This document shows positions 3,701-61,356 of a DNA stretch of 64,000 nt, in pieces (positions within the stretch are counted from its first letter, which is position 1; each line of letters opens with the position of its first letter). The DNA comes from Candidatus Woesearchaeota archaeon (GTDB taxonomy: Archaea > Nanobdellota > Nanobdellia > SCGC-AAA011-G17 > UBA489): assembly GCA_964343875.1 (NCBI GenBank), contig CAYFJW010000001.1, positions 9,696-73,695 of the forward strand, given 5' to 3'. The translations under genes and the position numbers were made by a program. The notes beneath the pieces were generated by a model that saw only the letters and a list, made by a program, of their open reading frames with translations, did no database searches and was not told where the DNA came from.

Positions 3701-4411
3701 TTCGCCTTCATCTTTAACAAACTCAACATAATCCCCCGCACCTTCAAACTTTTTCCATGTAATTACCTTCTTATAACCGCCAGAACCATAAAATGCAATC
3801 ATCAAAACAGGATCAACATCTTCATTAGGACTTCTTCGTTTGCTATAAACTTCAATATCAAAACCCAAAACTTTAGGTTTATCCAAAGTCCCATTCTCTT
3901 TTTCCTTAACGGACTTAGCATTAATTACTTTTTTTACAGTATAATTACTTTCAACTTCATCACCTTCAACAGTACAAAGTTTCAAGGGCTCCAATTTCCT
4001 ATCATTAAAGTATCTTCTAACAAACGGAACATCAGTTTCCAAACAAGTCACTACACCTTTAACAGATTTAATCTCCTCACGAATAGGACCAATATCCTTA
4101 GGATTATTAACCTCAACCTTCAAAGCATAAACATCCTTAGACAAATGTTTCTTTTTCAATATTTCAACATTAGTCGCATATGCAGTTCTTCTACTCTCAG
4201 CAATCTTTAAACCAAGTATTTTCTTCTTCAACTTAACAGCAAACTCCTTGTCCTCTAAAATAACCCAGAAATAAGCCGAGAAACTACTATCCAAAACACA
4301 AACCCGATCTCCCTCTGAACTTCTCCCAAATAACCTAATTACGCCCCTATGAGCACCATCTGGCTCATCAATATAGTCTGCAGTCAGTGGGAAAAAATCT
4401 AATTTCATCAC
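737..4411 (-). CDS. polB: Family B DNA polymerase precursor (1224 aa) containing one 400-aa intein
   Basis: Exo motifs FDIEV and YNLVDAEL. Pol motifs DFKSLYPTII and KTLANSTYGY, and YGD...TDS interrupted by the intein. C-terminal KKKYA. Confidence 0.95.
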   Translation of the reverse strand: MMKLDFFPLTADYIDEPDGAHRGVIRLFGRSSEGDRVCVLDSSFSAYFWVILEDKEFAVKLKKKILGLKIAESRRTAYATNVEILKKKHLSKDVYALKVEVNNPKDIGPIREEIKSVKGVVTCLETDVPFVRRYFNDRKLEPLKLCTVEGDEVESNYTVKKVINAKSVKEKENGTLDKPKVLGFDIEVYSKRRSPNEDVDPVLMIAFYGSGGYKKVITWKKFEGAGDYVEFVKDEGEMLMRFNDIVNTFGPDYIVGYFSDGFDFPYVKARAEKYKIKLKVGLDGKEVKFSRRNNTKTAKIVGMAHIDVFKFIRRIMSGEINLPSYDLDTVANNFLGTGKSGADVSKLWSAWDKGGKELGVYCKYNLVDAELAYKLFEKIYPNISEFVKLCGLPPDDLARMSFSQLVESFVLRNLDQFNEIAPNRPYRNVVGEREGVGYEGAFVVQPEPGIYRDVAVFDFKSLYPTIISVHNICPSTLTDSKKDVNVSPKIDYEGKEMEYRFSYKYDGFFPKLIREVLVRRNRVKDLLKKDKKDATLIARQYSLKTLANSTYGYFGFSGARWYCKECAASTTAFARDYIKQVIERAEKEKLEVVYGDSVGENSRVWIRNKGRIYETEIKSLFDKVDMKSKNGKEYNFRKGLEVLTLDHRGNSVFKPLVYVMRHKCDKKMYRVNFTNNWSIDVTEDHSLIGYESLMTARGKSRKCPLLRILEVKPEDINKKVKSLVAMKKIPNRKMKSKKYPDKVYEFMGLFIGDGSFQRNLNHKKSNKDYYLRLSLGLDGEELFERNIKPLIELGYIKNYWWSKSRKGDLTINGLKLVKLISKHCSDEKHKKIIPNWLMDETEENIGLFLRGLFTADGTVMLRNGAPIIKFTSVKNSHIGTVRKLLYLVGVSHSVFKENNKNVYRTKDTIHTSGSYSKNIIIKDRRKFNDSIGFLLKRKDKRARIKTKNIQKKLIKDFDFDLQGVKTIESFSNKGYVYDIEVEDTHRFFANYVLVHNTDSVFISLGKGKTMKDGELFLKSVNEELPSLMELELDGFYPRGIFVMKKGEEEGAKKKYALVNEKDEIKIVGFETVRGDWSLIAKETQKEVLRIVLVEDDVKKAVKYVKDVLDEVKDGKTPIEKLILKKRLTKNIGDYSAIGPHVNVAKQLIKRGDVIGAGSEIKYVVQEGKGNIGDRSVPDDEAKSYDPEYYIDNQIIPAVERIFLAVGYDKEDLTKLHKQKSLGDF
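1424..2623 (-). mobile_element. Intein with LAGLIDADG homing-endonuclease domain inserted in the PolB YGD/TDS (pol-c type) site
   Basis: Extein junctions read VVYGD|SVGENSRVWI...ANYVLVHN|TDSVFISL. Intein starts with Ser, ends His-Asn, +1 residue Thr. Block B is TEDH. Two LAGLIDADG motifs, MGLFIGDGSF and LRGLFTADGTV. Exactly 1200 nt, in frame. Confidence 0.85.
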
Positions 4412-34782: not shown

Positions 34783-34897
34783 GAGCCCGTAGCTTAGTCT
34801 GGTTAGAGCGCCAGTCTTATATGACGCTTCTTCGCTTAGAAGAAGATATAAGCTCTAAGAAAGCTGGAGGTCGGGAGTTCAAATCTCCTCGGGCTCA
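34783..34897 (+). tRNA. tRNA-Ile(UAU) with a 40-nt canonical 37/38 BHB intron (34822..34861)
   Basis: Acceptor GAGCCCG/CGGGCTC + A73 and a D arm almost identical to tRNA-Ile(GAU) at 61357. Anticodon stem CCAGT/GCTGG, loop CTTATA|A, anticodon TAT at 34818-34820. BHB: central helix CTTA (34816-19)/TAAG (34856-59), bulges TAT (34820-22) and AAA (34860-62). T arm GGGAG-TTCAAAT-CTCCT. Confidence 0.8.
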
Positions 34898-35627: not shown

Positions 35628-35724
35628 CATTTTTCTGATATTAACCACTTCAAAAAATAAAAAACATTTATATAGTCCTACAGGTCAAGTTTACGTATTA
35701 TACTCATTATAAGAGGTGAATTAT

Positions 35725-36105
35725 ATGGCTGCAAGAAGAAGAAAAGCAACAAGGCGACGTTCTACAGCTAGAAGATCCACTACTAGAAGAAGATCGACTG
35801 CAAGGAGAGCTACAACAAGACGTTCCACAAGAAGATCCACTACTAGAAAAAGATCTACTGCAAGAAGAACATCAACAAGGAGAAAAGCTCCACGAAGAAC
35901 ATCTTCAGCAAGTGCAACTTTAGTGTCTGCACCAGCTAGAAAAAGTTCTAAAGATCAGGAACTAGCTGCAATGCATCTGTCAATTTTAATTGTGGGTGTT
36001 GCCGGTGTTATACTCCTATTTGCTAAACCAACTCCAATGATGCAGAAAGTAGTAGGTGTCCTACTAGTTATTCTCGGTCTTTGGGGCCTAATGATGAAGA
36101 AATAA
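35725..36105 (+). CDS. Arg/Ser/Thr-repeat protein with two C-terminal TM helices
   Basis: ATG at 35725 preceded by GAGGTG. N-terminal tract of about 55 aa of RRST(A/T)RR repeats, then LSILIVGVAGVILLF and VVGVLLVILGLWGLMM. Confidence 0.55.
   Translation: MAARRRKATRRRSTARRSTTRRRSTARRATTRRSTRRSTTRKRSTARRTSTRRKAPRRTSSASATLVSAPARKSSKDQELAAMHLSILIVGVAGVILLFAKPTPMMQKVVGVLLVILGLWGLMMKK
35734..35898 (+). repeat. Tandem coding repeats (RRSTARR/RRSTTRR units)
   Basis: RRRKATRRRSTARRSTTRRRSTARRATTRRSTRRSTTRKRSTARRTSTRRKAPRR. Repetition is also visible at nucleotide level (agaagatccactactagaa occurs twice). Confidence 0.8.
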
Positions 36106-36118
36106 TTCTTCATCTTTT

Positions 36119-36484
36119 TTATTTATCCCTTATTTCTTTCCATTTAACTTTCTTAGAATCAACTAAATCTTTTATCCTTCTCTGTTTCTTAGATAAATTT
36201 GAACTTCCTGTTTTAAATTCAACAAACACAATTTCATCATCCTCAAAACTTAATCCATCTATAGGCGATCCAATAAATCTAAAATTATTCACATCATAAG
36301 GATATGAACTCATAAAGGGAAATAACTGCTCAAAAGATTTCCCGTGCTTCACAACATTGGACTTATGAGAAAATCTCAACTCTTCATGCAATCCTCCTAA
36401 CACTCTGAGCTCATTATTCTTCAACCAAAGGAGCACAAATAATATCAAAATTACACCAATCAAAACTAACGTTAAAACATCCAT
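36119..36484 (-). CDS. Membrane-anchored endonuclease related to archaeal Holliday-junction resolvase (PF10107-like)
   Basis: N-terminal TM VLTLVLIGVILILFVLLWL, then FRFIGSPIDGLSFEDDEIVFVEFKTGSSNLSKKQRRIKDLV (D...E-x-K core). Confidence 0.55.
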   Translation of the reverse strand: MDVLTLVLIGVILILFVLLWLKNNELRVLGGLHEELRFSHKSNVVKHGKSFEQLFPFMSSYPYDVNNFRFIGSPIDGLSFEDDEIVFVEFKTGSSNLSKKQRRIKDLVDSKKVKWKEIRDK

Positions 36485-36570: not shown

Positions 36571-36675
36571 ATGAAAAGAAGCTCTAAAAGGTGGAAAAAA
36601 AGACACCAAATGCGTTGGAAGTGGCAACGTAAAAAGATGAATAAAGAGAAGAGAAAGCGTAAAGCTAACAAATAG
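36571..36675 (+). CDS. rpl41e: Ribosomal protein L41e (34 aa; absent from the ORF track)
   Basis: Own translation MKRSSKRWKKRHQMRWKWQRKKMNKEKRKRKANK. It contains the KRSS.RWKKK..MRWKW core of archaeal L41e. Confidence 0.75.
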   Translation: MKRSSKRWKKRHQMRWKWQRKKMNKEKRKRKANK

Positions 36676-36689
36676 TTCTACTAGAAATG

Positions 36690-36698
36690 TTTTTAAAG
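36690..36698 (+). promoter_or_regulatory. TATA-like box (TTTTTAAAG) upstream of tRNA-Thr
   Basis: Ends about 24 nt upstream of tRNA position 1 (36722), just after the rpl41e stop. Confidence 0.45.
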
Positions 36699-36757
36699 TA
36701 ACCAGTCGGCACCTAGCTATCGCCACCGTAGCTCAACGGTAGAGCATTTGCCTTGTA

Positions 36758-37201
36758 TGTCCACAAGGGATATAAAAACCATTGTCTTTTTTGACAGATG
36801 GTCTCAGAGAAAAAGAAAATTTCAAGAGAAGCGGAATTACGCTTTGCCTCTGAATTTGTGAAGAAAGGATACGACGTATTCTTTCCGATGTCGGAGTTTG
36901 GAGCTATAGACCTAGCGGTTCACAAAGATGGATGTTTTAAACGTGTCCAAGTGAAAGCTACAAAACCTACTAATGGGGGATTAACTGTTAAGTTGAGATC
37001 TACCAATAACTGGCAGGATAAGAGGTACACTACAAATGACGTTGATGGGATAGCTGCGTATGACTATATGTCTTGTAGAGGATATTTGTTCGACCTCAAA
37101 AAATTTGAAGGCCAATCACAAGTTGTATTAAGGACAAACCCCACAAAGAATAATCAAAAAAAGCTCGTTAACTCCGCATCAAAATTCCTGTGGTTCAAGT
37201 A
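36758..37201 (+). mobile_element. Bulge-helix-bulge tRNA intron (444 nt) carrying an endonuclease ORF
   Basis: hBHBh' fold: anticodon stem, then 3-nt bulge TAA (37200-02). Central helix CTTG (36752-55)/CAAG (37196-99), then 3-nt bulge TAT (36756-58). Inner helix GTCCACA (36759-65)/TGTGGTT (37189-95) with one G-U and one U-U. Cleavage after the second bulge nucleotide on each side gives 36757|36758 and 37201|37202. Confidence 0.75.
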
Positions 37202-37202
37202 A
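36798..37202 (+). CDS. Intron-encoded PD-(D/E)XK endonuclease-like protein (I-Ssp6803I / PDDEXK_5-like), 134 aa
   Basis: REAELRFASEFVKKGYDVFFPMSEFGAIDLAVHKDGCFKRVQVKAT (E...D...QxK core), then NDVDGIAAYD and LRTNPTKNNQ. These match my recollection of the family that includes the cyanobacterial tRNA-intron homing endonuclease. Confidence 0.7.
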   Translation: MVSEKKKISREAELRFASEFVKKGYDVFFPMSEFGAIDLAVHKDGCFKRVQVKATKPTNGGLTVKLRSTNNWQDKRYTTNDVDGIAAYDYMSCRGYLFDLKKFEGQSQVVLRTNPTKNNQKKLVNSASKFLWFK

Positions 37203-37244
37203 GCAAAAGGTTGGGAGTTCAAATCTCTCCGGTGGCTTTTCAAA

Positions 37245-37871
37245 ATGAGAATAGTATTAATCGGCGGACCAGGATCTGGAAAAGGAACTAGAGCCAAACA
37301 TATGGCAAAACACCTTTCCCTCCCACACATAAGCACAGGAGATATTTTTAGACACCACTTAGAGCAAGATACAGAGCATGCAGCCGAAATAAGAAGTTTC
37401 ATAGACTTTGGAAACTTAGTCCCAGATTCTCTTACAATAAAACTACTAAAAAAGAGACTAGCAGAAGACGATTGTCAAAGCGGTTTTATCTTGGATGGCT
37501 TTCCAAGAACAATGGAACAAGCCATGGGCATGGATCTTCCCGAACATGTTTTATTTTTTGATTGCCACGAAGATACTTTAGTTGATCGCCTAGGAAATAG
37601 ACTAAGTTGTAAGGATTGCAAACAGATCTACAATCTAAAAGGACAAAAACCAAAAGTCGAAAACAAATGCGATCACTGTGAAGGCGATTTAATACAAAGG
37701 GAAGATGACAAGGAAGAAGTTATTAGAGACCGATTAAAAGTTTACAAAAAACAAACAGAACCAGTTTTAGATTTCTTTGGAGAAAAAGTAACTAAATTTG
37801 ACACAGGAAAGGAAGTTGAAGAATCTGTAGAAGAAATATTGGCATTCTTAAGAAAAGAGCCCGTGGTCTAG
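37245..37871 (+). CDS. adk: Adenylate kinase (long, zinc-lid type)
   Basis: P-loop GGPGSGKGT, ISTGDIFR, GFILDGFPRT, lid CKDCKQIYN...CDHCEG. Starts 8 nt after tRNA-Thr. The last 4 codons plus stop lie inside tRNA-Val. Confidence 0.9.
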   Translation: MRIVLIGGPGSGKGTRAKHMAKHLSLPHISTGDIFRHHLEQDTEHAAEIRSFIDFGNLVPDSLTIKLLKKRLAEDDCQSGFILDGFPRTMEQAMGMDLPEHVLFFDCHEDTLVDRLGNRLSCKDCKQIYNLKGQKPKVENKCDHCEGDLIQREDDKEEVIRDRLKVYKKQTEPVLDFFGEKVTKFDTGKEVEESVEEILAFLRKEPVV

Positions 37872-37928
37872 TGGTATGACGTTTCCCTGACTTGGAAGAG
37901 GTCGCAGGTTCGATCCCTGCCGGGCTCA
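37857..37928 (+). tRNA. tRNA-Val(GAC)
   Basis: Acceptor GAGCCCG/CGGGCTC + A73, anticodon arm TTTCC-CTGACTT-GGAAG, T arm GCAGG-TTCGATC-CCTGC. The U at position 37 is unusual. Confidence 0.75.
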
Positions 37929-37994
37929 CTTTTTCAAAACATTTATTTCCATTTATACATTAGACTTTTAAAGAAGCTCTCATTGTAAAACTCA

Positions 37995-57838: not shown

Positions 57839-58741
57839 TCAAACTTTAATTTTCATAAAATCCTTTGCAGCAATTACATCTTTCTTAAAGACTTTTTTTG
57901 CTTCCTTAACCATTTGTTCAACTTCAGCCATCTCATACCTTTGACTAAAATGGGTAATAGCTAACTTCTTACACTTACCTTTCTTCCCTAATTCGCCAGC
58001 ATCTTCAGATGTTAAATGTTTATACCTTTTAGCCCTAGCTTTCATGTCTTTCAAAAAAGTAGCCTCACAAATAAGTAGATCGGCATTTTTCCCAACATTA
58101 ACAGCGGCAGCACAAAAAGAAGTGTCTAACACAACTCCAACTTTCTTGCCTTCCTTAACATAAGTAACGCTCTTCCATTTAATTTTCTTGCCTTTATATT
58201 CAACGTCTTTCTTATTCTTCAATTTAGCAATAATTGGTCCAGAAGGTAATTTCAACTTCTTCATTTTAATTTTATCAACACAAACTTTATCCTTCTCTTT
58301 AGCATAATAACCCAAACAAGGAATACTATGTTTTAAAAAATAAGCTCCAAACTGATAATCTCCAGTATCCAAAAACACTCCACTCTTATCAATTACAGTA
58401 AAATTAATCTTTATCTTATGGCCCAAATCAAAAGTCCTAACTAATTGCATCAACTTCTTCTTAACATCAAGAGTTCCATAAATATCAATCTTCTTCTCAA
58501 AAGAATTCTTAGCCAAATTCTCTAACAAACCAGGCAAACCAAATATGTGATCTCCATGCCAATGTGAAATAAATATTCTTGTAATCTTTGGAGGTGCAAT
58601 CCCAGCAATTCTTAACTGCCTTTGCATATTTTCTCCGCAATCAACCAAAACTTTCTCCCTACCACAATCTATCAGAATGCCACTCTGTCCACGTTCCTTC
58701 GTAGGCACCATTGAAGAGGTCCCCAAAAATGTAACTTCCAT
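57839..58741 (-). CDS. rnz: Ribonuclease Z (tRNA 3' endonuclease)
   Basis: Metallo-beta-lactamase motif ISHWHGDHIFGLPGLL, LGTSSMVPTKER, ITHFSQRY. Confidence 0.9.
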   Translation of the reverse strand: MEVTFLGTSSMVPTKERGQSGILIDCGREKVLVDCGENMQRQLRIAGIAPPKITRIFISHWHGDHIFGLPGLLENLAKNSFEKKIDIYGTLDVKKKLMQLVRTFDLGHKIKINFTVIDKSGVFLDTGDYQFGAYFLKHSIPCLGYYAKEKDKVCVDKIKMKKLKLPSGPIIAKLKNKKDVEYKGKKIKWKSVTYVKEGKKVGVVLDTSFCAAAVNVGKNADLLICEATFLKDMKARAKRYKHLTSEDAGELGKKGKCKKLAITHFSQRYEMAEVEQMVKEAKKVFKKDVIAAKDFMKIKV

Positions 58742-58791: not shown

Positions 58792-59322
58792 ATGGCAGCT
58801 AAGAAAACCTTCCAAGCAAATTTTGTTGGAGAAGGAGTAACGGCGGAGGATGGACCCAAACCTAGAGAACTCTATGACAAAAGCAGATTTGGAGAATTGG
58901 TTTCGGGCAAATTCAAATATTCATTATCAGAAGCACTCTTCTTACTTGAAAACAAAAAGATAGAAGTCCTAGACAGAAACAAAACACTAACAAAGGAAGA
59001 TTTCTTAAAAAAAGCAAGAAAGCTAGACAAGAACTTCTGGGTTAAATATGTAGTATTTTCTAACCTCAGAACTAAGGGCTACATTGTAAAAACAGCACTA
59101 AAATTCGGAGCGGACTTCAGAGTATATGATAAAGGAATCAAACCAGGACAAGACCACGCAAAATGGATTGTTTTCCCAGTACATGAATCAAACACATTAA
59201 CATGGCATGACTTCTCAGCCAAAAACAGAGTATCACATTCAACCAGAAAGAACCTTTTAATTGCAGTGGTAGACGAAGAAGATGACGTCACATACTACGA
59301 AATCGCTTGGAAAAAGCCATAA
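58792..59322 (+). CDS. endA: tRNA-splicing endonuclease EndA, short (176 aa) single-unit type
   Basis: LSEALFLLENKKIEV, YVVFSNLRTKGYIVKTALKFGADFRVY, HAKWIVFPV (catalytic Y/H/K context). The size matches homotetrameric alpha4 enzymes. Confidence 0.9.
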   Translation: MAAKKTFQANFVGEGVTAEDGPKPRELYDKSRFGELVSGKFKYSLSEALFLLENKKIEVLDRNKTLTKEDFLKKARKLDKNFWVKYVVFSNLRTKGYIVKTALKFGADFRVYDKGIKPGQDHAKWIVFPVHESNTLTWHDFSAKNRVSHSTRKNLLIAVVDEEDDVTYYEIAWKKP

Positions 59323-61162: not shown

Positions 61163-61302
61163 GTCTCGGTAGCTCAGTGGTTAGAGCACACCAAGTGGCC
61201 TAAAGGCGCAAGGGCTCAAACGGCTGTTATCCTTCTAGGGTAAGGCTGAAAACCCATAGGGCTGAGACCGTGAGGTCGGAGGTTCAAATCCTCCCCGGGA
61301 CG
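61163..61302 (+). tRNA. tRNA with doubly interrupted anticodon arm; best reading is tRNA-Asn(GUU) with two introns (61190..61219 and 61230..61266)
   Basis: Intact acceptor GTCTCGG/CCGGGAC + G73, D arm GCTC-AGTGGTTA-GAGC, T arm GGAGG-TTCAAAT-CCTCC. 67 extra nt lie in the anticodon arm. Joining 61163-89 + 61220-29 + 61267-302 gives stem CACGG/CCGTG and loop CTGTTAA (73 nt). Confidence 0.65.
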
Positions 61303-61356
61303 CTTTTTTCTCGCCAGAAAATCTTATAAATTGGTATAAAAAGAAATTAAAAGCAA

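What the first reader, a model, noticed from the sequence alone, without database searches (positions are those of the whole stretch)
36722..37237. tRNA-Thr(UGU) split by a 444-nt bulge-helix-bulge intron that encodes a PD-(D/E)XK homing-endonuclease-like protein
Two 36-nt exons (36722-36757 and 37202-37237) assemble into a clean 72-nt cloverleaf with loop CUUGUAA. The junctions fold by eye into a textbook hBHBh' motif. The parts are the anticodon stem, a 3-nt bulge UAA, a 4-bp helix CUUG/CAAG, a 3-nt bulge UAU, and a 7-position inner helix. The cuts fall exactly at 37/38. Archaeal tRNA introns are normally tens of nucleotides long and non-coding. Here 405 of 444 nt are a single ORF with an E...D...QxK core and an LRTNPTKNNQ tail. 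These resemble the PDDEXK_5 family, which includes I-Ssp6803I, the endonuclease of a bacterial group I intron in a tRNA anticodon loop. ORF-bearing BHB introns are known from archaeal rRNA genes, where they carry LAGLIDADG enzymes. I am not aware of a protein-coding BHB tRNA intron, so this looks like an undescribed type of mobile tRNA intron.
Basis: partly seen in the sequence, partly recalled or inferred. Interest (0 to 1): 0.92.

Follow-up and report, generated by a model that had tools for sequence, protein, structure and literature searches.

The report
Endonuclease gene inside an archaeal tRNA intron
An archaeal threonine tRNA gene is split by a 444-base intron of the protein-spliced (bulge-helix-bulge) type that carries a complete, conserved gene for an I-Ssp6803I-like DNA-cutting enzyme, a combination I could not find described and which shows how selfish nuclease genes can move into archaeal tRNA introns.

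Summary
Exons 36722-36757 and 37202-37237 join into a clean 72-nt tRNA-Thr(UGU). The 444-nt intron sits at the canonical 37/38 site. [quoted passage not shown]

The 134-aa intron ORF is a firm PDDEXK_5 member (Pfam 64.6 bits against a cut-off of 26.1). Its AlphaFold model best matches I-Ssp6803I (TM 0.76). An EndA splicing endonuclease is encoded at 58792-59322.

This endonuclease family has at least 313 clusters, in Woesearchaeota/Nanoarchaeota-type archaea. In 29 of 30 informative loci the gene is physically tied to the tRNA-Thr(UGU) gene: 6 copies inside the 37/38 intron, 12 just upstream, 8 just downstream and 3 divergent. All intronic copies fall in one protein clade, which also holds two free-standing copies. 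Every copy, intronic or not, keeps its own TATA-box module about 28 nt before the ATG. Every intronic ORF ends TTC-AAG-TRA, so the coding sequence also supplies the 3' strand of the BHB. dN/dS is 0.07-0.16.

Best reading: a homing-endonuclease gene that targets tRNA-Thr(UGU) and has lodged in a host-spliced BHB intron. Nuclease activity, target site, splicing and present-day mobility are inferred, not shown. I found no prior description.

The parts
36690..36698 (+). TATA-like box (TTTTTAAAG) of the tRNA-Thr gene, about 28 nt before the tRNA 5' end
   Evidence: Read from the sequence. Similar TTTAAATA-type boxes lie at the same distance before tRNA-Thr in L003 and L032. Its function as a promoter is inferred.
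36722..36757 (+). tRNA-Thr(UGU) 5' exon (positions 1-37). Anticodon stem 5' strand is 36747-36751, the anticodon UGU is 36754-36756, and CUUG 36752-36755 is the 5' strand of the BHB central helix.
   Evidence: ARAGORN on the spliced and unspliced sequence; junction table.
36758..37201 (+). 444-nt BHB intron at canonical position 37/38: 40 nt non-coding followed by 404 nt coding
   Evidence: ARAGORN -i. The BHB is in the MFE fold of the full precursor. No Rfam family, including group I introns, matches at E<=1.
36759..36765 (+). 5' strand of the inner helix h' (GUCCACA). It pairs with 37189-37195.
   Evidence: Pair probabilities 0.98-0.99 for the four central pairs. The helix is kept with different sequences in L032, L020 and L046, and with variant geometry in L001 (2-nt 5' bulge) and L003 (interrupted helix, low predicted probability).
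36770..36780 (+). Internal TATA-box module (ATATAAAAACC) of the endonuclease gene, 28 nt before the ATG. It predicts a leaderless mRNA that starts inside the intron.
   Evidence: It aligns with the ATATAAATAGAC(C) module found at the same distance before nearly all 27 family copies compared, free-standing and intronic. Its function is inferred.
36798..37202 (+). 134-aa PD-(D/E)XK (PDDEXK_5, I-Ssp6803I-like) endonuclease ORF. The stop codon UAA 37200-37202 spans the 3' splice site, and the last five codons encode the 3' strands of h' and the central helix.
   Evidence: Pfam 64.6 bits. Profile hit to 2OST, E=6.6e-4. AF2 pLDDT 90.9 and Foldseek top hit 2OST, E=6e-9, TM 0.76. Invariant E11/E13...D38...Q51-x-K53. 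dN/dS 0.07 against L032.
37189..37199 (+). 3' strands of h' (UGUGGUU, 37189-37195) and of the central helix (CAAG, 37196-37199). This stretch is also the codons L-W-F-K.
   Evidence: All six intronic ORFs end TTC AAG TRA, and one free-standing copy is a single base away (TTC AAA TAA).
37202..37237 (+). tRNA-Thr(UGU) 3' exon (positions 38-73). Anticodon stem 3' strand is 37203-37207.
   Evidence: Compensatory 27:43 (U-A to A-U) and T-stem changes relative to L032.
58792..59322 (+). EndA tRNA-splicing endonuclease (176 aa, N- and C-terminal domains), the enzyme expected to cut the BHB
   Evidence: PF01974 at 103 bits and PF02778 at 40.8 bits. TIGR00324 endA at 103 bits against a cut-off of 59.6.

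Best explanation
The tRNA-Thr(UGU) gene of this DPANN-type (Woesearchaeota/Nanoarchaeota-like) archaeon is interrupted at position 37/38 by a protein-spliced bulge-helix-bulge intron. The loop of that intron has been occupied by a minimal homing-endonuclease gene cassette: its own TATA box plus a 134-aa I-Ssp6803I-family PD-(D/E)XK nuclease.

Proposed working:
1. The tRNA promoter makes a 516-nt precursor. The anticodon stem, CUUG(32-35)/CAAG and the inner helix form the BHB. Host EndA (58792-59322) cuts in both bulges and a ligase joins the exons into a normal tRNA. This is inferred from structure and conservation.
2. The nuclease is translated from a separate leaderless mRNA that starts at the internal promoter. 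That mRNA lacks the 5' half of the BHB, so EndA does not cut it. It also has a complete UAA stop, which borrows tRNA nucleotide 38. This is inferred from the conserved promoter module.
3. The nuclease cuts tRNA-Thr(UGU) genes that lack the insertion, most likely in the pseudo-palindromic anticodon-arm region. Break repair then copies the cassette and flanking DNA. An intron at 37/38 splits that site and protects the carrier. This is inferred from the near-exclusive linkage to this one isoacceptor gene and by analogy with I-Ssp6803I.
4. The intronic form arose when a free-standing copy next to an intron-bearing tRNA-Thr gene moved into the intron. This is the 'endonuclease-gene invasion' or 'collaborative homing' route known for group I introns. 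It was helped because the natural 3' end of the ORF (TTYRAATAA) is one or two bases away from the CAAG-UAA that the BHB needs.
For: Split tRNA and BHB:
- ARAGORN on spliced and unspliced sequence.
- The BHB is in the unconstrained MFE fold of the full precursor in the window, L032, L001 and L020.
- The central helix co-varies with tRNA position 32: CUUG/CAAG against UUUG/CAAA in L010, L025 and L026.
- Inner helices differ in sequence but stay complementary: GUCCACA, GACCACAAGG, AAUCGAAA, GAGUGG.
- Compensatory 27:43 and T-stem substitutions occur between the window and L032.
- EndA is present, and three more intron-bearing tRNAs lie in the window.

Nuclease:
- Pfam hit, PDB profile hit, fold match to 2OST at TM 0.76.
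- Invariant E...D...QxK in 23 homologues.
- dN/dS 0.07-0.16 with saturated dS.

Linkage to tRNA-Thr(UGU):
- 29 of 30 informative loci: 6 intronic, 12 upstream, 8 downstream, 3 divergent.
- The gene lies on different sides of the tRNA within the same synteny. L006 and L008 share S3Ae...GINS...apgM. The window, L001, L032, L017, L035 and L040 share the Thr-Val tRNA pair.

Tree: the intronic copies plus two free-standing copies (L035, L040) form one clade with 100% bootstrap.

Own promoter module in all copies.

An intron-less and HEG-less tRNA-Thr(UGU) sits at the syntenic site in L039.

Frameworks of invasion and collaborative homing: PMC3984707.
Against: - There are no RNA data, so neither splicing nor the internal transcription start has been seen.
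- No cleavage assay exists, and the target site is unknown.
- Placement tracks protein clade, so much of the pattern could be vertical inheritance after a few ancient moves. dS is saturated even between the two closest intronic copies, and the intron's G+C matches its surroundings. This points to long residence rather than recent invasion.
- No decayed copies were seen. The classic homing cycle predicts them, but the search method would have missed them.
- Clade B copies sit beside uninterrupted tRNA-Thr genes. If the target is the anticodon arm, those hosts must be protected by sequence differences, which is not shown.
- The closest relative by adenylate kinase (91% identity, L036) has no tRNA-Thr at the site, so no empty site was found in a close relative.
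- The inner helix in the window has a G.U and a U.U next to the bulge. L001, L003 and L020 have 2- or 4-nt bulges or weak helices.
- Whether this is the only tRNA-Thr(UGU) gene in the genome could not be checked.
Confidence: 0.75

Rival explanations
1. A domesticated or host-function nuclease. The PDDEXK_5 protein is no longer, or never was, a homing enzyme. It serves the cell, for example in repair, resolution or defence, or in keeping the tRNA-Thr locus intact. It is simply inherited with the tRNA-Thr locus, and its intronic position is a neutral accident tolerated because EndA removes it.
For: Strong purifying selection with saturated synonymous divergence. Placement is congruent with protein clade. 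No degenerate copies were seen. Composition is native. The closest folds after I-Ssp6803I are Hjc resolvases and the SPARDA nuclease domain.
Against: A host function does not explain why the gene lies within about 100 nt of one particular tRNA isoacceptor gene in 29 of 30 loci, on either side, on either strand, or inside it, within otherwise conserved synteny. The family is absent from a syntenic relative (L039). It is a 130-aa single-gene cassette with its own promoter, the typical format of free-standing homing endonuclease genes. The nearest characterised relative is a homing enzyme that cuts a tRNA gene.
Confidence: 0.15
2. A dead tRNA gene. The insertion destroyed a redundant tRNA-Thr(UGU) copy, the apparent BHB is fortuitous, and the functional gene lies elsewhere in the genome.
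For: Only 64 kb of the genome could be inspected, so a second copy cannot be excluded. The inner helix in the window is imperfect.
Against: Six diverged loci (ORF identity down to about 52%) all keep perfect cloverleaf exons. They show compensatory stem changes, including the 27:43 pair that spans the intron. All keep CUUG/CAAG and a complementary inner helix of different sequence. All intronic ORFs, and only one of the free-standing ORFs compared, end in FK, and only the intronic ones end exactly in CAAG-URA.
Confidence: 0.04
3. A degenerate group I intron. Like I-Ssp6803I's host intron, this would be a self-splicing intron in a tRNA anticodon loop rather than a BHB intron.
For: The protein family name ('group I intron-associated PD-(D/E)XK endonuclease' in NCBI annotations) and the anticodon-loop position.
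Against: Only 40 nt of the intron are non-coding, far too little for a ribozyme core. No Rfam group I or other family matches at E<=1. The junctions fit the BHB rule, and the host encodes EndA.
Confidence: 0.01
4. A remnant of a larger integrated element that used the tRNA gene as an attachment site, with the nuclease gene as leftover cargo.
For: tRNA genes are common integration sites. A tRNA-Val 5'-half remnant flanks a LAGLIDADG gene in relative L039.
Against: No integrase, direct-repeat att sites or other cargo are present. The unit is always the same roughly 430-nt promoter-plus-ORF cassette. In the intronic loci the insertion is exactly bounded by a BHB. No relatives were found in IMG/VR viral contigs.
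Confidence: 0.05

Closest known systems
I-Ssp6803I, the PD-(D/E)XK homing endonuclease of the group I intron in tRNA-fMet of Synechocystis PCC 6803 (PDB 2OST; Pfam PF11645)
   Same: Same Pfam family. Best structural match, TM 0.76. Same atypical D...QxK motif in the HMMER alignment. Similar size of about 130-150 aa. Encoded in an intron in a tRNA anticodon loop.
   Different: Only about 22% identity. The host intron here is protein-spliced (BHB/EndA), with no ribozyme. The host is an archaeon, not a cyanobacterium. The tRNA is Thr(UGU), not fMet. Most relatives here are free-standing beside the tRNA gene. Activity here is untested.
ORF-bearing archaeal BHB introns in rRNA genes, with LAGLIDADG enzymes such as I-DmoI, I-PorI and I-ApeI
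   Same: BHB junctions cut by the tRNA splicing endonuclease, with a homing-endonuclease ORF in the intron loop. Mobility by homing is documented for some of these (PMC6125680, PMC3984707, PMC4496867).
   Different: Those sit in 16S/23S rRNA genes and encode LAGLIDADG proteins. This one sits at tRNA position 37/38 and encodes a PD-(D/E)XK protein. The ORF's last codons double as the BHB 3' strand, and the stop codon spans the splice site.
Collaborative homing and endonuclease-gene invasion of group I introns (free-standing HEG next to an ORF-less intron, e.g. cyanophage S-PM2 F-CphI/psbA)
   Same: A free-standing nuclease gene lies beside a target gene whose intron sits at the presumed cleavage site (12 'upstream' loci all have a 37/38 intron). 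Close relatives of the nuclease lie inside the intron. The framework is described in PMC3984707 and PMC6083498.
   Different: The known cases involve self-splicing group I introns in phage or bacterial protein-coding genes and were shown experimentally. Here the intron is a BHB tRNA intron in archaeal chromosomes and everything is inferred from comparative genomics.
Ordinary archaeal tRNA BHB introns (tens of nucleotides; some carry a C/D box sRNA, e.g. Haloferax tRNA-Trp; own knowledge, and review PMC4090602)
   Same: Canonical 37/38 position, hBHBh' architecture, EndA-dependent removal. Relatives of this very gene carry 13-40-nt introns at the same site.
   Different: This intron is ten to thirty times longer, 91% protein-coding, and has its own promoter.

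Membership tests
Archaeal bulge-helix-bulge (EndA-spliced) intron | Exon-intron junctions lie in two roughly 3-nt bulges separated by a 4-bp helix and flanked by helices (hBHBh') | tested here: met
   Bulges UA|U and UA|A, CUUG/CAAG, the anticodon stem and the inner helix are present. The motif is in the MFE fold of the full precursor. The inner helix starts with G.U and U.U in the window and is perfect in L032.
Archaeal bulge-helix-bulge (EndA-spliced) intron | Spliced exons give a functional RNA, and the structure is conserved by covariation | tested here: met
   72-nt cloverleaf. Compensatory 27:43 and T-stem changes between the window and L032. The central helix co-varies with position 32. 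Inner helices differ in sequence in six loci.
Archaeal bulge-helix-bulge (EndA-spliced) intron | Host encodes the splicing endonuclease EndA | tested here: met
   58792-59322: PF01974 and PF02778, TIGR00324 at 103 bits against a cut-off of 59.6. The RNA ligase was not searched for.
Archaeal bulge-helix-bulge (EndA-spliced) intron | Actual cleavage at the bulges and exon ligation, with a linear or circular intron released | not testable with these tools
   No transcriptome or biochemical data are available.
PDDEXK_5 / I-Ssp6803I PD-(D/E)XK endonuclease family | Sequence match above the curated family threshold | tested here: met
   PF11645 at 64.6 bits against a cut-off of 26.1, covering 3-135 of 138 profile positions. 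No NCBIfam model matched.
PDDEXK_5 / I-Ssp6803I PD-(D/E)XK endonuclease family | Restriction-endonuclease-like fold closest to I-Ssp6803I, with the acidic/Lys catalytic residues conserved | tested here: met
   AF2 pLDDT 90.9. Foldseek top four hits are 2OST chains, E=6e-9, TM 0.76. E11, E13, D38, Q51 and K53 are invariant in 23 sequences. D and QVK align to the YDLV and VQVKS segments of 2OST.
PDDEXK_5 / I-Ssp6803I PD-(D/E)XK endonuclease family | Site-specific double-strand cleavage of the intron-less target gene | not testable with these tools
   This needs purified protein and a synthetic tRNA-Thr(UGU) gene.
Group I intron-encoded homing endonuclease (the context of I-Ssp6803I) | The ORF is embedded in a self-splicing group I ribozyme | tested here: not met
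   Only 40 non-coding nt are in the intron. No Rfam match at E<=1 or at gathering thresholds.
Mobile (homing) genetic element | Presence/absence polymorphism of the element at the same site in related genomes | tested here: inconclusive
   L039 has an intron-less and HEG-less tRNA-Thr(UGU) at the syntenic tRNA-Thr-adk position, but its adk is only 53% identical. L035 and L040 have a short intron with the gene outside it. The closest relative, L036, lacks the tRNA at that site.
Mobile (homing) genetic element | The element occupies different positions relative to a conserved target or synteny | tested here: met
   Upstream, downstream, inverted or intronic relative to the same tRNA gene, within shared S3Ae...GINS or Thr-Val synteny.
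Mobile (homing) genetic element | Element phylogeny is incongruent with host phylogeny, or co-conversion tracts are present | not tested
   Too few host markers are available in the fetched loci, and contig look-ups were exhausted.
LAGLIDADG endonucleases of archaeal rRNA introns | LAGLIDADG motifs or Pfam LAGLIDADG_1/2/3 | tested here: not met
   PF11645 was the only Pfam hit at E<=10.

The most novel reading that the evidence does not exclude
Archaeal tRNA introns and homing endonucleases are locked in the same arms race and partnership as group I introns and their HEGs. Under this reading, the short 37/38 introns of tRNA-Thr(UGU) in these DPANN archaea persist, and spread, because they break the recognition site of a tRNA-gene-specific PD-(D/E)XK nuclease encoded next door. 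Intron and nuclease are co-converted together (collaborative homing). In one lineage they have fused into a self-contained mobile BHB intron. This would be the first mechanism for gain and horizontal spread of archaeal tRNA introns, and direct support for the idea that tRNA introns protect tRNA genes from DNA-level attack.
Probability: 0.3. Interest if true: 0.9.

Novelty: new variant of a known kind. Interest (0 to 1): 0.8.

Why it matters
Archaeal tRNA introns are regarded as short, non-coding and immobile at the DNA level. How they are gained, why they cluster at 37/38 and why they persist are open questions.

This locus and its relatives provide a natural series, all built around one tRNA gene and one nuclease family:
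- nuclease gene beside an intron-less tRNA gene
- nuclease gene beside an intron-bearing tRNA gene
- nuclease gene inside the intron

The series makes three ideas directly testable with a 134-aa protein, a 176-aa EndA and a 516-nt transcript:
- whether tRNA introns act as immunity against gene-specific nucleases
- whether BHB introns can be mobilised by homing
- whether ORF-bearing BHB introns arise by endonuclease-gene invasion or by decay of group I introns

It also extends the PD-(D/E)XK homing-endonuclease family from cyanobacterial group I introns to archaeal protein-spliced introns. In addition, it shows coding sequence and splice signal overlapping: the stop codon is completed by the first nucleotide of the 3' exon.

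On the practical side, standard tRNA finders and Rfam miss such genes, so tRNA-Thr(UGU) would be reported as missing from these genomes.

Tried and rejected
- **Default detectors.** Default ARAGORN and Rfam (gathering and E<=1) do not see the split gene. It needed ARAGORN with long introns allowed, or manual splicing.
- **Mis-called neighbours.** ARAGORN -i first labelled several neighbouring tRNAs as Tyr(gta), Ser or Phe. Re-splicing at the CUUGUA|...|A junction showed that they are all tRNA-Thr(UGU). The apparent tRNA-Tyr association was dropped.
- **Duplicated 3' splice site.** The 5' part of the long introns looked like a degenerate duplicate of the 3' splice site (for example L003, AAAAGTATTTAAGTGAG against AAAAGTATTTGTTTTTCAAGTGAG). 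Aligning all upstream regions showed that this stretch is the conserved TATA-box module, which is also present in free-standing copies. The duplication idea was rejected.
- **Bacterial host for L008.** The 'Dojkabacteria' label on L008 suggested a bacterium, but its neighbours are the archaeal L44e, S3Ae and GINS genes, so it is a mis-binned archaeon. L044, by contrast, does look bacterial.
- **Group I intron.** Rejected.
- **Empty site in close relatives.** I searched through adenylate-kinase homologues. The 91%-identical relative has a rearranged locus without the tRNA. Only a distant relative (L039) gave an intron-less, HEG-less allele.
- **Viral carriers.** None were found in IMG/VR.
- **Papers not held.** The primary I-Ssp6803I papers and Tocchini-Valentini 2011 were not held. 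Statements about I-Ssp6803I's tetramer and 23-bp pseudo-palindromic target rest on PMC3384342.
- **Composition.** The intron shows no foreign signature.
Full report
**1. The observation**

The sequence at 36722-37237 contains two 36-nt segments. Joined, they give GCCACCGTAGCTCAACGGTAGAGCATTTGCCTTGTA|AGCAAAAGGTTGGGAGTTCAAATCTCTCCGGTGGCT. ARAGORN folds this as a 72-nt tRNA-Thr(UGU) with a 7-bp acceptor stem, 4-bp D stem, 5-bp anticodon stem and 5-bp T stem.

Default ARAGORN and Rfam miss the gene. ARAGORN with introns up to 1 kb reports tRNA-Thr [36722,37237] with a 444-nt intron. The same run shows three more intron-bearing tRNAs in the window: Ser 34783-34897, Leu c47066-47174 and Leu 61163-61303. 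Splicing is therefore routine in this organism.

The only ORF of any length in the intron is 36798-37202 (134 aa).

**2. The junctions**

- The exon ends ...UUUGC CUUG UA| and the intron begins U GUCCACA.
- The intron ends UGUGGUU CAAG UA| and the exon resumes A GCAAA.
- This gives the 5-bp anticodon stem, a 3-nt bulge UA|A, the 4-bp helix CUUG/CAAG, a 3-nt bulge UA|U and an inner helix. The cuts fall between tRNA positions 37 and 38.

I folded the whole 516-nt precursor with no constraints. The anticodon stem, the central helix (pair probability 0.64) and the Watson-Crick part of the inner helix (0.98-0.99) are all in the minimum-energy structure. The G.U and U.U pairs next to the bulge are not predicted to form, so the motif is slightly relaxed here.

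**3. The protein**

- The ORF matches Pfam PF11645 (PDDEXK_5) over nearly the whole model: 64.6 bits against a cut-off of 26.1, E=1.2e-17.
- A profile of 23 homologues hits one relevant PDB sequence, 2OST (I-Ssp6803I). The alignment matches D38 and Q51-V-K53 to the YDLV and VQVKS segments of that enzyme.
- An AlphaFold2 model (pLDDT 90.9) has the four 2OST chains as its best Foldseek matches (E=6e-9, TM 0.76). These are followed at a distance by SPARDA nuclease domains and archaeal Hjc resolvases.
- E11, E13, D38, Q51 and K53 are invariant in the family.
- Pairwise dN/dS is 0.07-0.16 with saturated dS, so the protein is kept functional.

**4. The organism and the splicing enzyme**

- 58792-59322 encodes a 176-aa EndA: PF01974 and PF02778, and TIGR00324 at 103 bits against a cut-off of 59.6.
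- An L41e-like mini-ORF lies at 36571-36675. An Hjc-related protein and an archaeal-type promoter consensus are also present.
- Relatives are labelled Woesearchaeota or Nanoarchaeota.
- Together these place the window in a DPANN-type archaeon.

**5. Relatives: the main new result**

The ORF has 22 homologues at 45-75% identity and 313 clusters by profile search. I fetched DNA around them.

ARAGORN had mis-called several neighbouring tRNAs as Tyr or Ser because it placed their introns wrongly. After correction, every neighbouring tRNA is tRNA-Thr(UGU).

Of 31 distinct loci, 30 are informative and 29 are linked to this tRNA gene:

| Placement | Count | Loci |
|---|---|---|
| Inside a 413-459-nt intron at 37/38 | 6 | window, L032, L001, L003, L020, L046 |
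| 36-100 nt upstream of a tRNA-Thr(UGU) that carries a 15-38-nt intron at 37/38 (for L011, cut by the contig end, the intron is only partly seen) | 12 | L006, L010, L011, L014, L015, L016, L022, L024, L025, L027, L029, L030 |
| 19-75 nt downstream | 8 | L008, L012, L013, L019, L044 (intron-less tRNA); L017, L035, L040 (13-18-nt intron) |
| Divergent | 3 | L009, L018, L026 |

Only L028 has no tRNA nearby.

Within conserved synteny the gene changes sides. L006 reads S3Ae - HEG - tRNA-Thr, and L008 reads S3Ae - tRNA-Thr - HEG. In the Thr-Val tRNA pair the gene lies in the intron in L001 and L032, and between the two tRNAs in L017, L035 and L040. In the window the gene is also intronic, with adk lying between tRNA-Thr and tRNA-Val.

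L008 was labelled Dojkabacteria, but it carries the archaeal L44e, S3Ae and GINS genes.

**6. Phylogeny**

A neighbour-joining tree gives three clades that follow placement:

- Clade A (100% bootstrap) holds the five intronic copies in the tree (window, L032, L020, L001, L003) plus the free-standing L035, which groups with L001 and L003 at 96%. L046 (intronic) and L040 (free-standing), fetched later, are assigned to it by similarity (55% and 58% identity to the window protein).
- Clade B (100%) holds the downstream and divergent copies.
- Clade C holds the upstream copies.

Entry into the intron was therefore rare, with at least one move between intron and flank inside clade A.

**7. Conservation of the split gene**

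- All six intronic loci keep intact cloverleaf exons.
- Between the window and L032, pair 27:43 changes from U-A to A-U. Its two sides lie in different exons. A T-stem pair changes from A-U to G-C.
- The central helix is CUUG/CAAG in all long introns. It is UUUG/CAAA in the three short-intron genes that have U32.
- Inner helices differ in sequence but remain complementary: GACCACAAGG/UCUUGUGGUU in L032, AAUCGAAA/UUUCGAUU in L020 and GAGUGG/UUACUU in L046.
- L032 shows an exact 3-4-3 BHB in its MFE fold. L001 has a 2-nt 5' bulge and L020 a 4-nt 5' bulge. L003 folds weakly.

**8. Overlap of coding and splicing signals**

Every intronic ORF ends TTC AAG TAA or TTC AAG TGA. CAAG is the 3' strand of the central helix. 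The stop codon is the 3' bulge, and its last A is tRNA nucleotide 38.

Free-standing copies end TTT GAA TAA, TTC GAA TAG, TTC AAA TAA or TAT TTT TAA. The ancestral gene end was therefore one or two substitutions away from what the BHB needs. Of 120 listed family proteins, 10 end in -FK. Six of these are verified as intronic.

**9. Expression**

Nearly all 27 copies compared carry ATATAAATAGAC(C) about 32 to 21 nt before the ATG, followed by a CTCTTAGTA-like element. L020 and the L001/L003/L035 group carry diverged versions of the box. In the window the box is ATATAAAAACC at 36770-36780.

This matches the TATA consensus seen before the tRNA genes themselves at a similar distance from the transcript start. 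I infer that the nuclease is made from its own leaderless mRNA starting inside the intron. Such an mRNA lacks the 5' half of the BHB, so EndA would not cut it. It would also have a complete stop codon, whereas a linear excised intron would end ...UA.

**10. Mechanism**

- *Shown:* the anatomy, family membership, conservation, covariation and linkage.
- *Inferred:* EndA splicing, a separate mRNA, DNA cleavage of tRNA-Thr(UGU) genes, homing, and protection by the intron.

The exclusive link to the UGU isoacceptor suggests that the anticodon region is part of the target. I-Ssp6803I recognises a 23-bp pseudo-palindromic target as a tetramer (PMC3384342), and a tRNA anticodon arm is such a pseudo-palindrome. 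An intron at 37/38 would split it.

The arrangement 'free-standing gene beside an intron-bearing target, with relatives inside the intron' is the pattern described for group I introns as endonuclease-gene invasion or collaborative homing (PMC3984707; PMC6083498).

**11. Caveats**

- Placement follows clade. dS is saturated, and composition is native. The intronic state is therefore old, and current mobility is unproven.
- Clade B genes sit next to uninterrupted tRNAs.
- No empty site was found in a close relative. L036 (adk 91% identical) lacks the tRNA at that site. L039 (adk 53% identical) has an intron-less, HEG-less tRNA-Thr(UGU) in the syntenic place.
- I could not check whether the genome has another tRNA-Thr(UGU).

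**12. Comparison and novelty**

Three things were already known:

- BHB introns with LAGLIDADG ORFs in archaeal rRNA genes
- a PD-(D/E)XK homing enzyme in a bacterial tRNA group I intron
- short non-coding tRNA BHB introns

I found no report of a protein-coding tRNA BHB intron, or of a PD-(D/E)XK gene in an archaeal intron, in the held library or reviews. The library is incomplete, and some key papers were not held.

NCBI names some family members 'group I intron-associated PD-(D/E)XK endonuclease', which mislabels their context. I rate this a new variant of a known kind, of high interest.

Noticed in passing
window 36119-36484 (-): A 121-aa protein with an N-terminal membrane helix and a PF10107 'endonuclease related to archaeal Holliday junction resolvase' domain. 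It is a second PD-(D/E)XK-type nuclease, 237 nt upstream of the split tRNA on the opposite strand.
   Followed up: no
window 36571-36675 (+): A 34-aa Arg/Lys-rich ORF (MKRSSKRWKKRHQMRWKWQRKKMNKEKRKRKANK) that looks like ribosomal protein L41e, an archaeal/eukaryotic marker too short for most gene callers.
   Followed up: partly
window 35716-36105 (+): A 129-aa ORF with repeated RR(R/K)ST(A/T)RR units followed by hydrophobic segments. Its function is unknown.
   Followed up: no
window 37245-37871 and 37857-37929: The adenylate kinase gene starts 8 nt after the tRNA-Thr 3' end, and its last 15 nt overlap tRNA-Val(GAC).
   Followed up: no
window 57839-58741 (-) and 58792-59322 (+): An RNase Z-like metallo-beta-lactamase gene sits head-to-head with EndA, so two tRNA-processing enzymes are divergently arranged.
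   Followed up: no
window 34783-34897, c47066-47174, 61163-61303: Three more intron-bearing tRNA genes: Ser(UGA) with a 40-nt intron, Leu(UAA) with 24 nt, and Leu(GAG) with 69 nt at an apparently non-canonical position. The last has no Rfam hit.
   Followed up: partly
L037 2816-3625 (-) and 3836-3951 (+): In a relative (adk 62% identical), a 269-aa LAGLIDADG_3 gene lies between S3Ae and a tRNA-Thr(UGU) that appears to carry three short introns. A different homing-endonuclease family occupies the same neighbourhood.
   Followed up: partly
L039 4624-4660, 4700-5371, 5357-5453: A LAGLIDADG_3-like ORF is flanked by a remnant of a tRNA-Val 5' half and a complete tRNA-Val(GAC) with a 24-nt intron. 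The same contig has the intron-less, HEG-less tRNA-Thr(UGU) at 3917-3990.
   Followed up: partly
L044 1409-1908: A 39%-identical family member lies 19 nt downstream of an intron-less tRNA-Thr(UGU) on a contig that looks bacterial (85-nt class II tRNA-Tyr, PSP1 gene). It is followed by GC-rich repeats (ATCATGGGCGGATACCGAAGTATCCGCC). The link to tRNA-Thr(UGU) may therefore cross domains.
   Followed up: partly
about -14 to -6 before the ATG of nearly all family copies (e.g. L006 2984-2999; window 36781-36797, a diverged version): A conserved CTCTTAGTA element, often part of a short palindrome that abuts the start codon (for example CTTCCAC TTAGTAT GTGGAAG ATG in L026). It could be an operator or an initiator. 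It remains unexplained.
   Followed up: partly
proteins P0208, P0231, P0235: Three further family members end in -FK, as the intronic copies do. Their genomic context could not be fetched because look-ups were exhausted. They are candidates for more intron-borne copies.
   Followed up: no
L008: This contig is deposited as 'Candidatus Dojkabacteria bacterium' but carries the archaeal ribosomal proteins L44e and S3Ae and a GINS subunit. It is probably mis-binned.
   Followed up: yes
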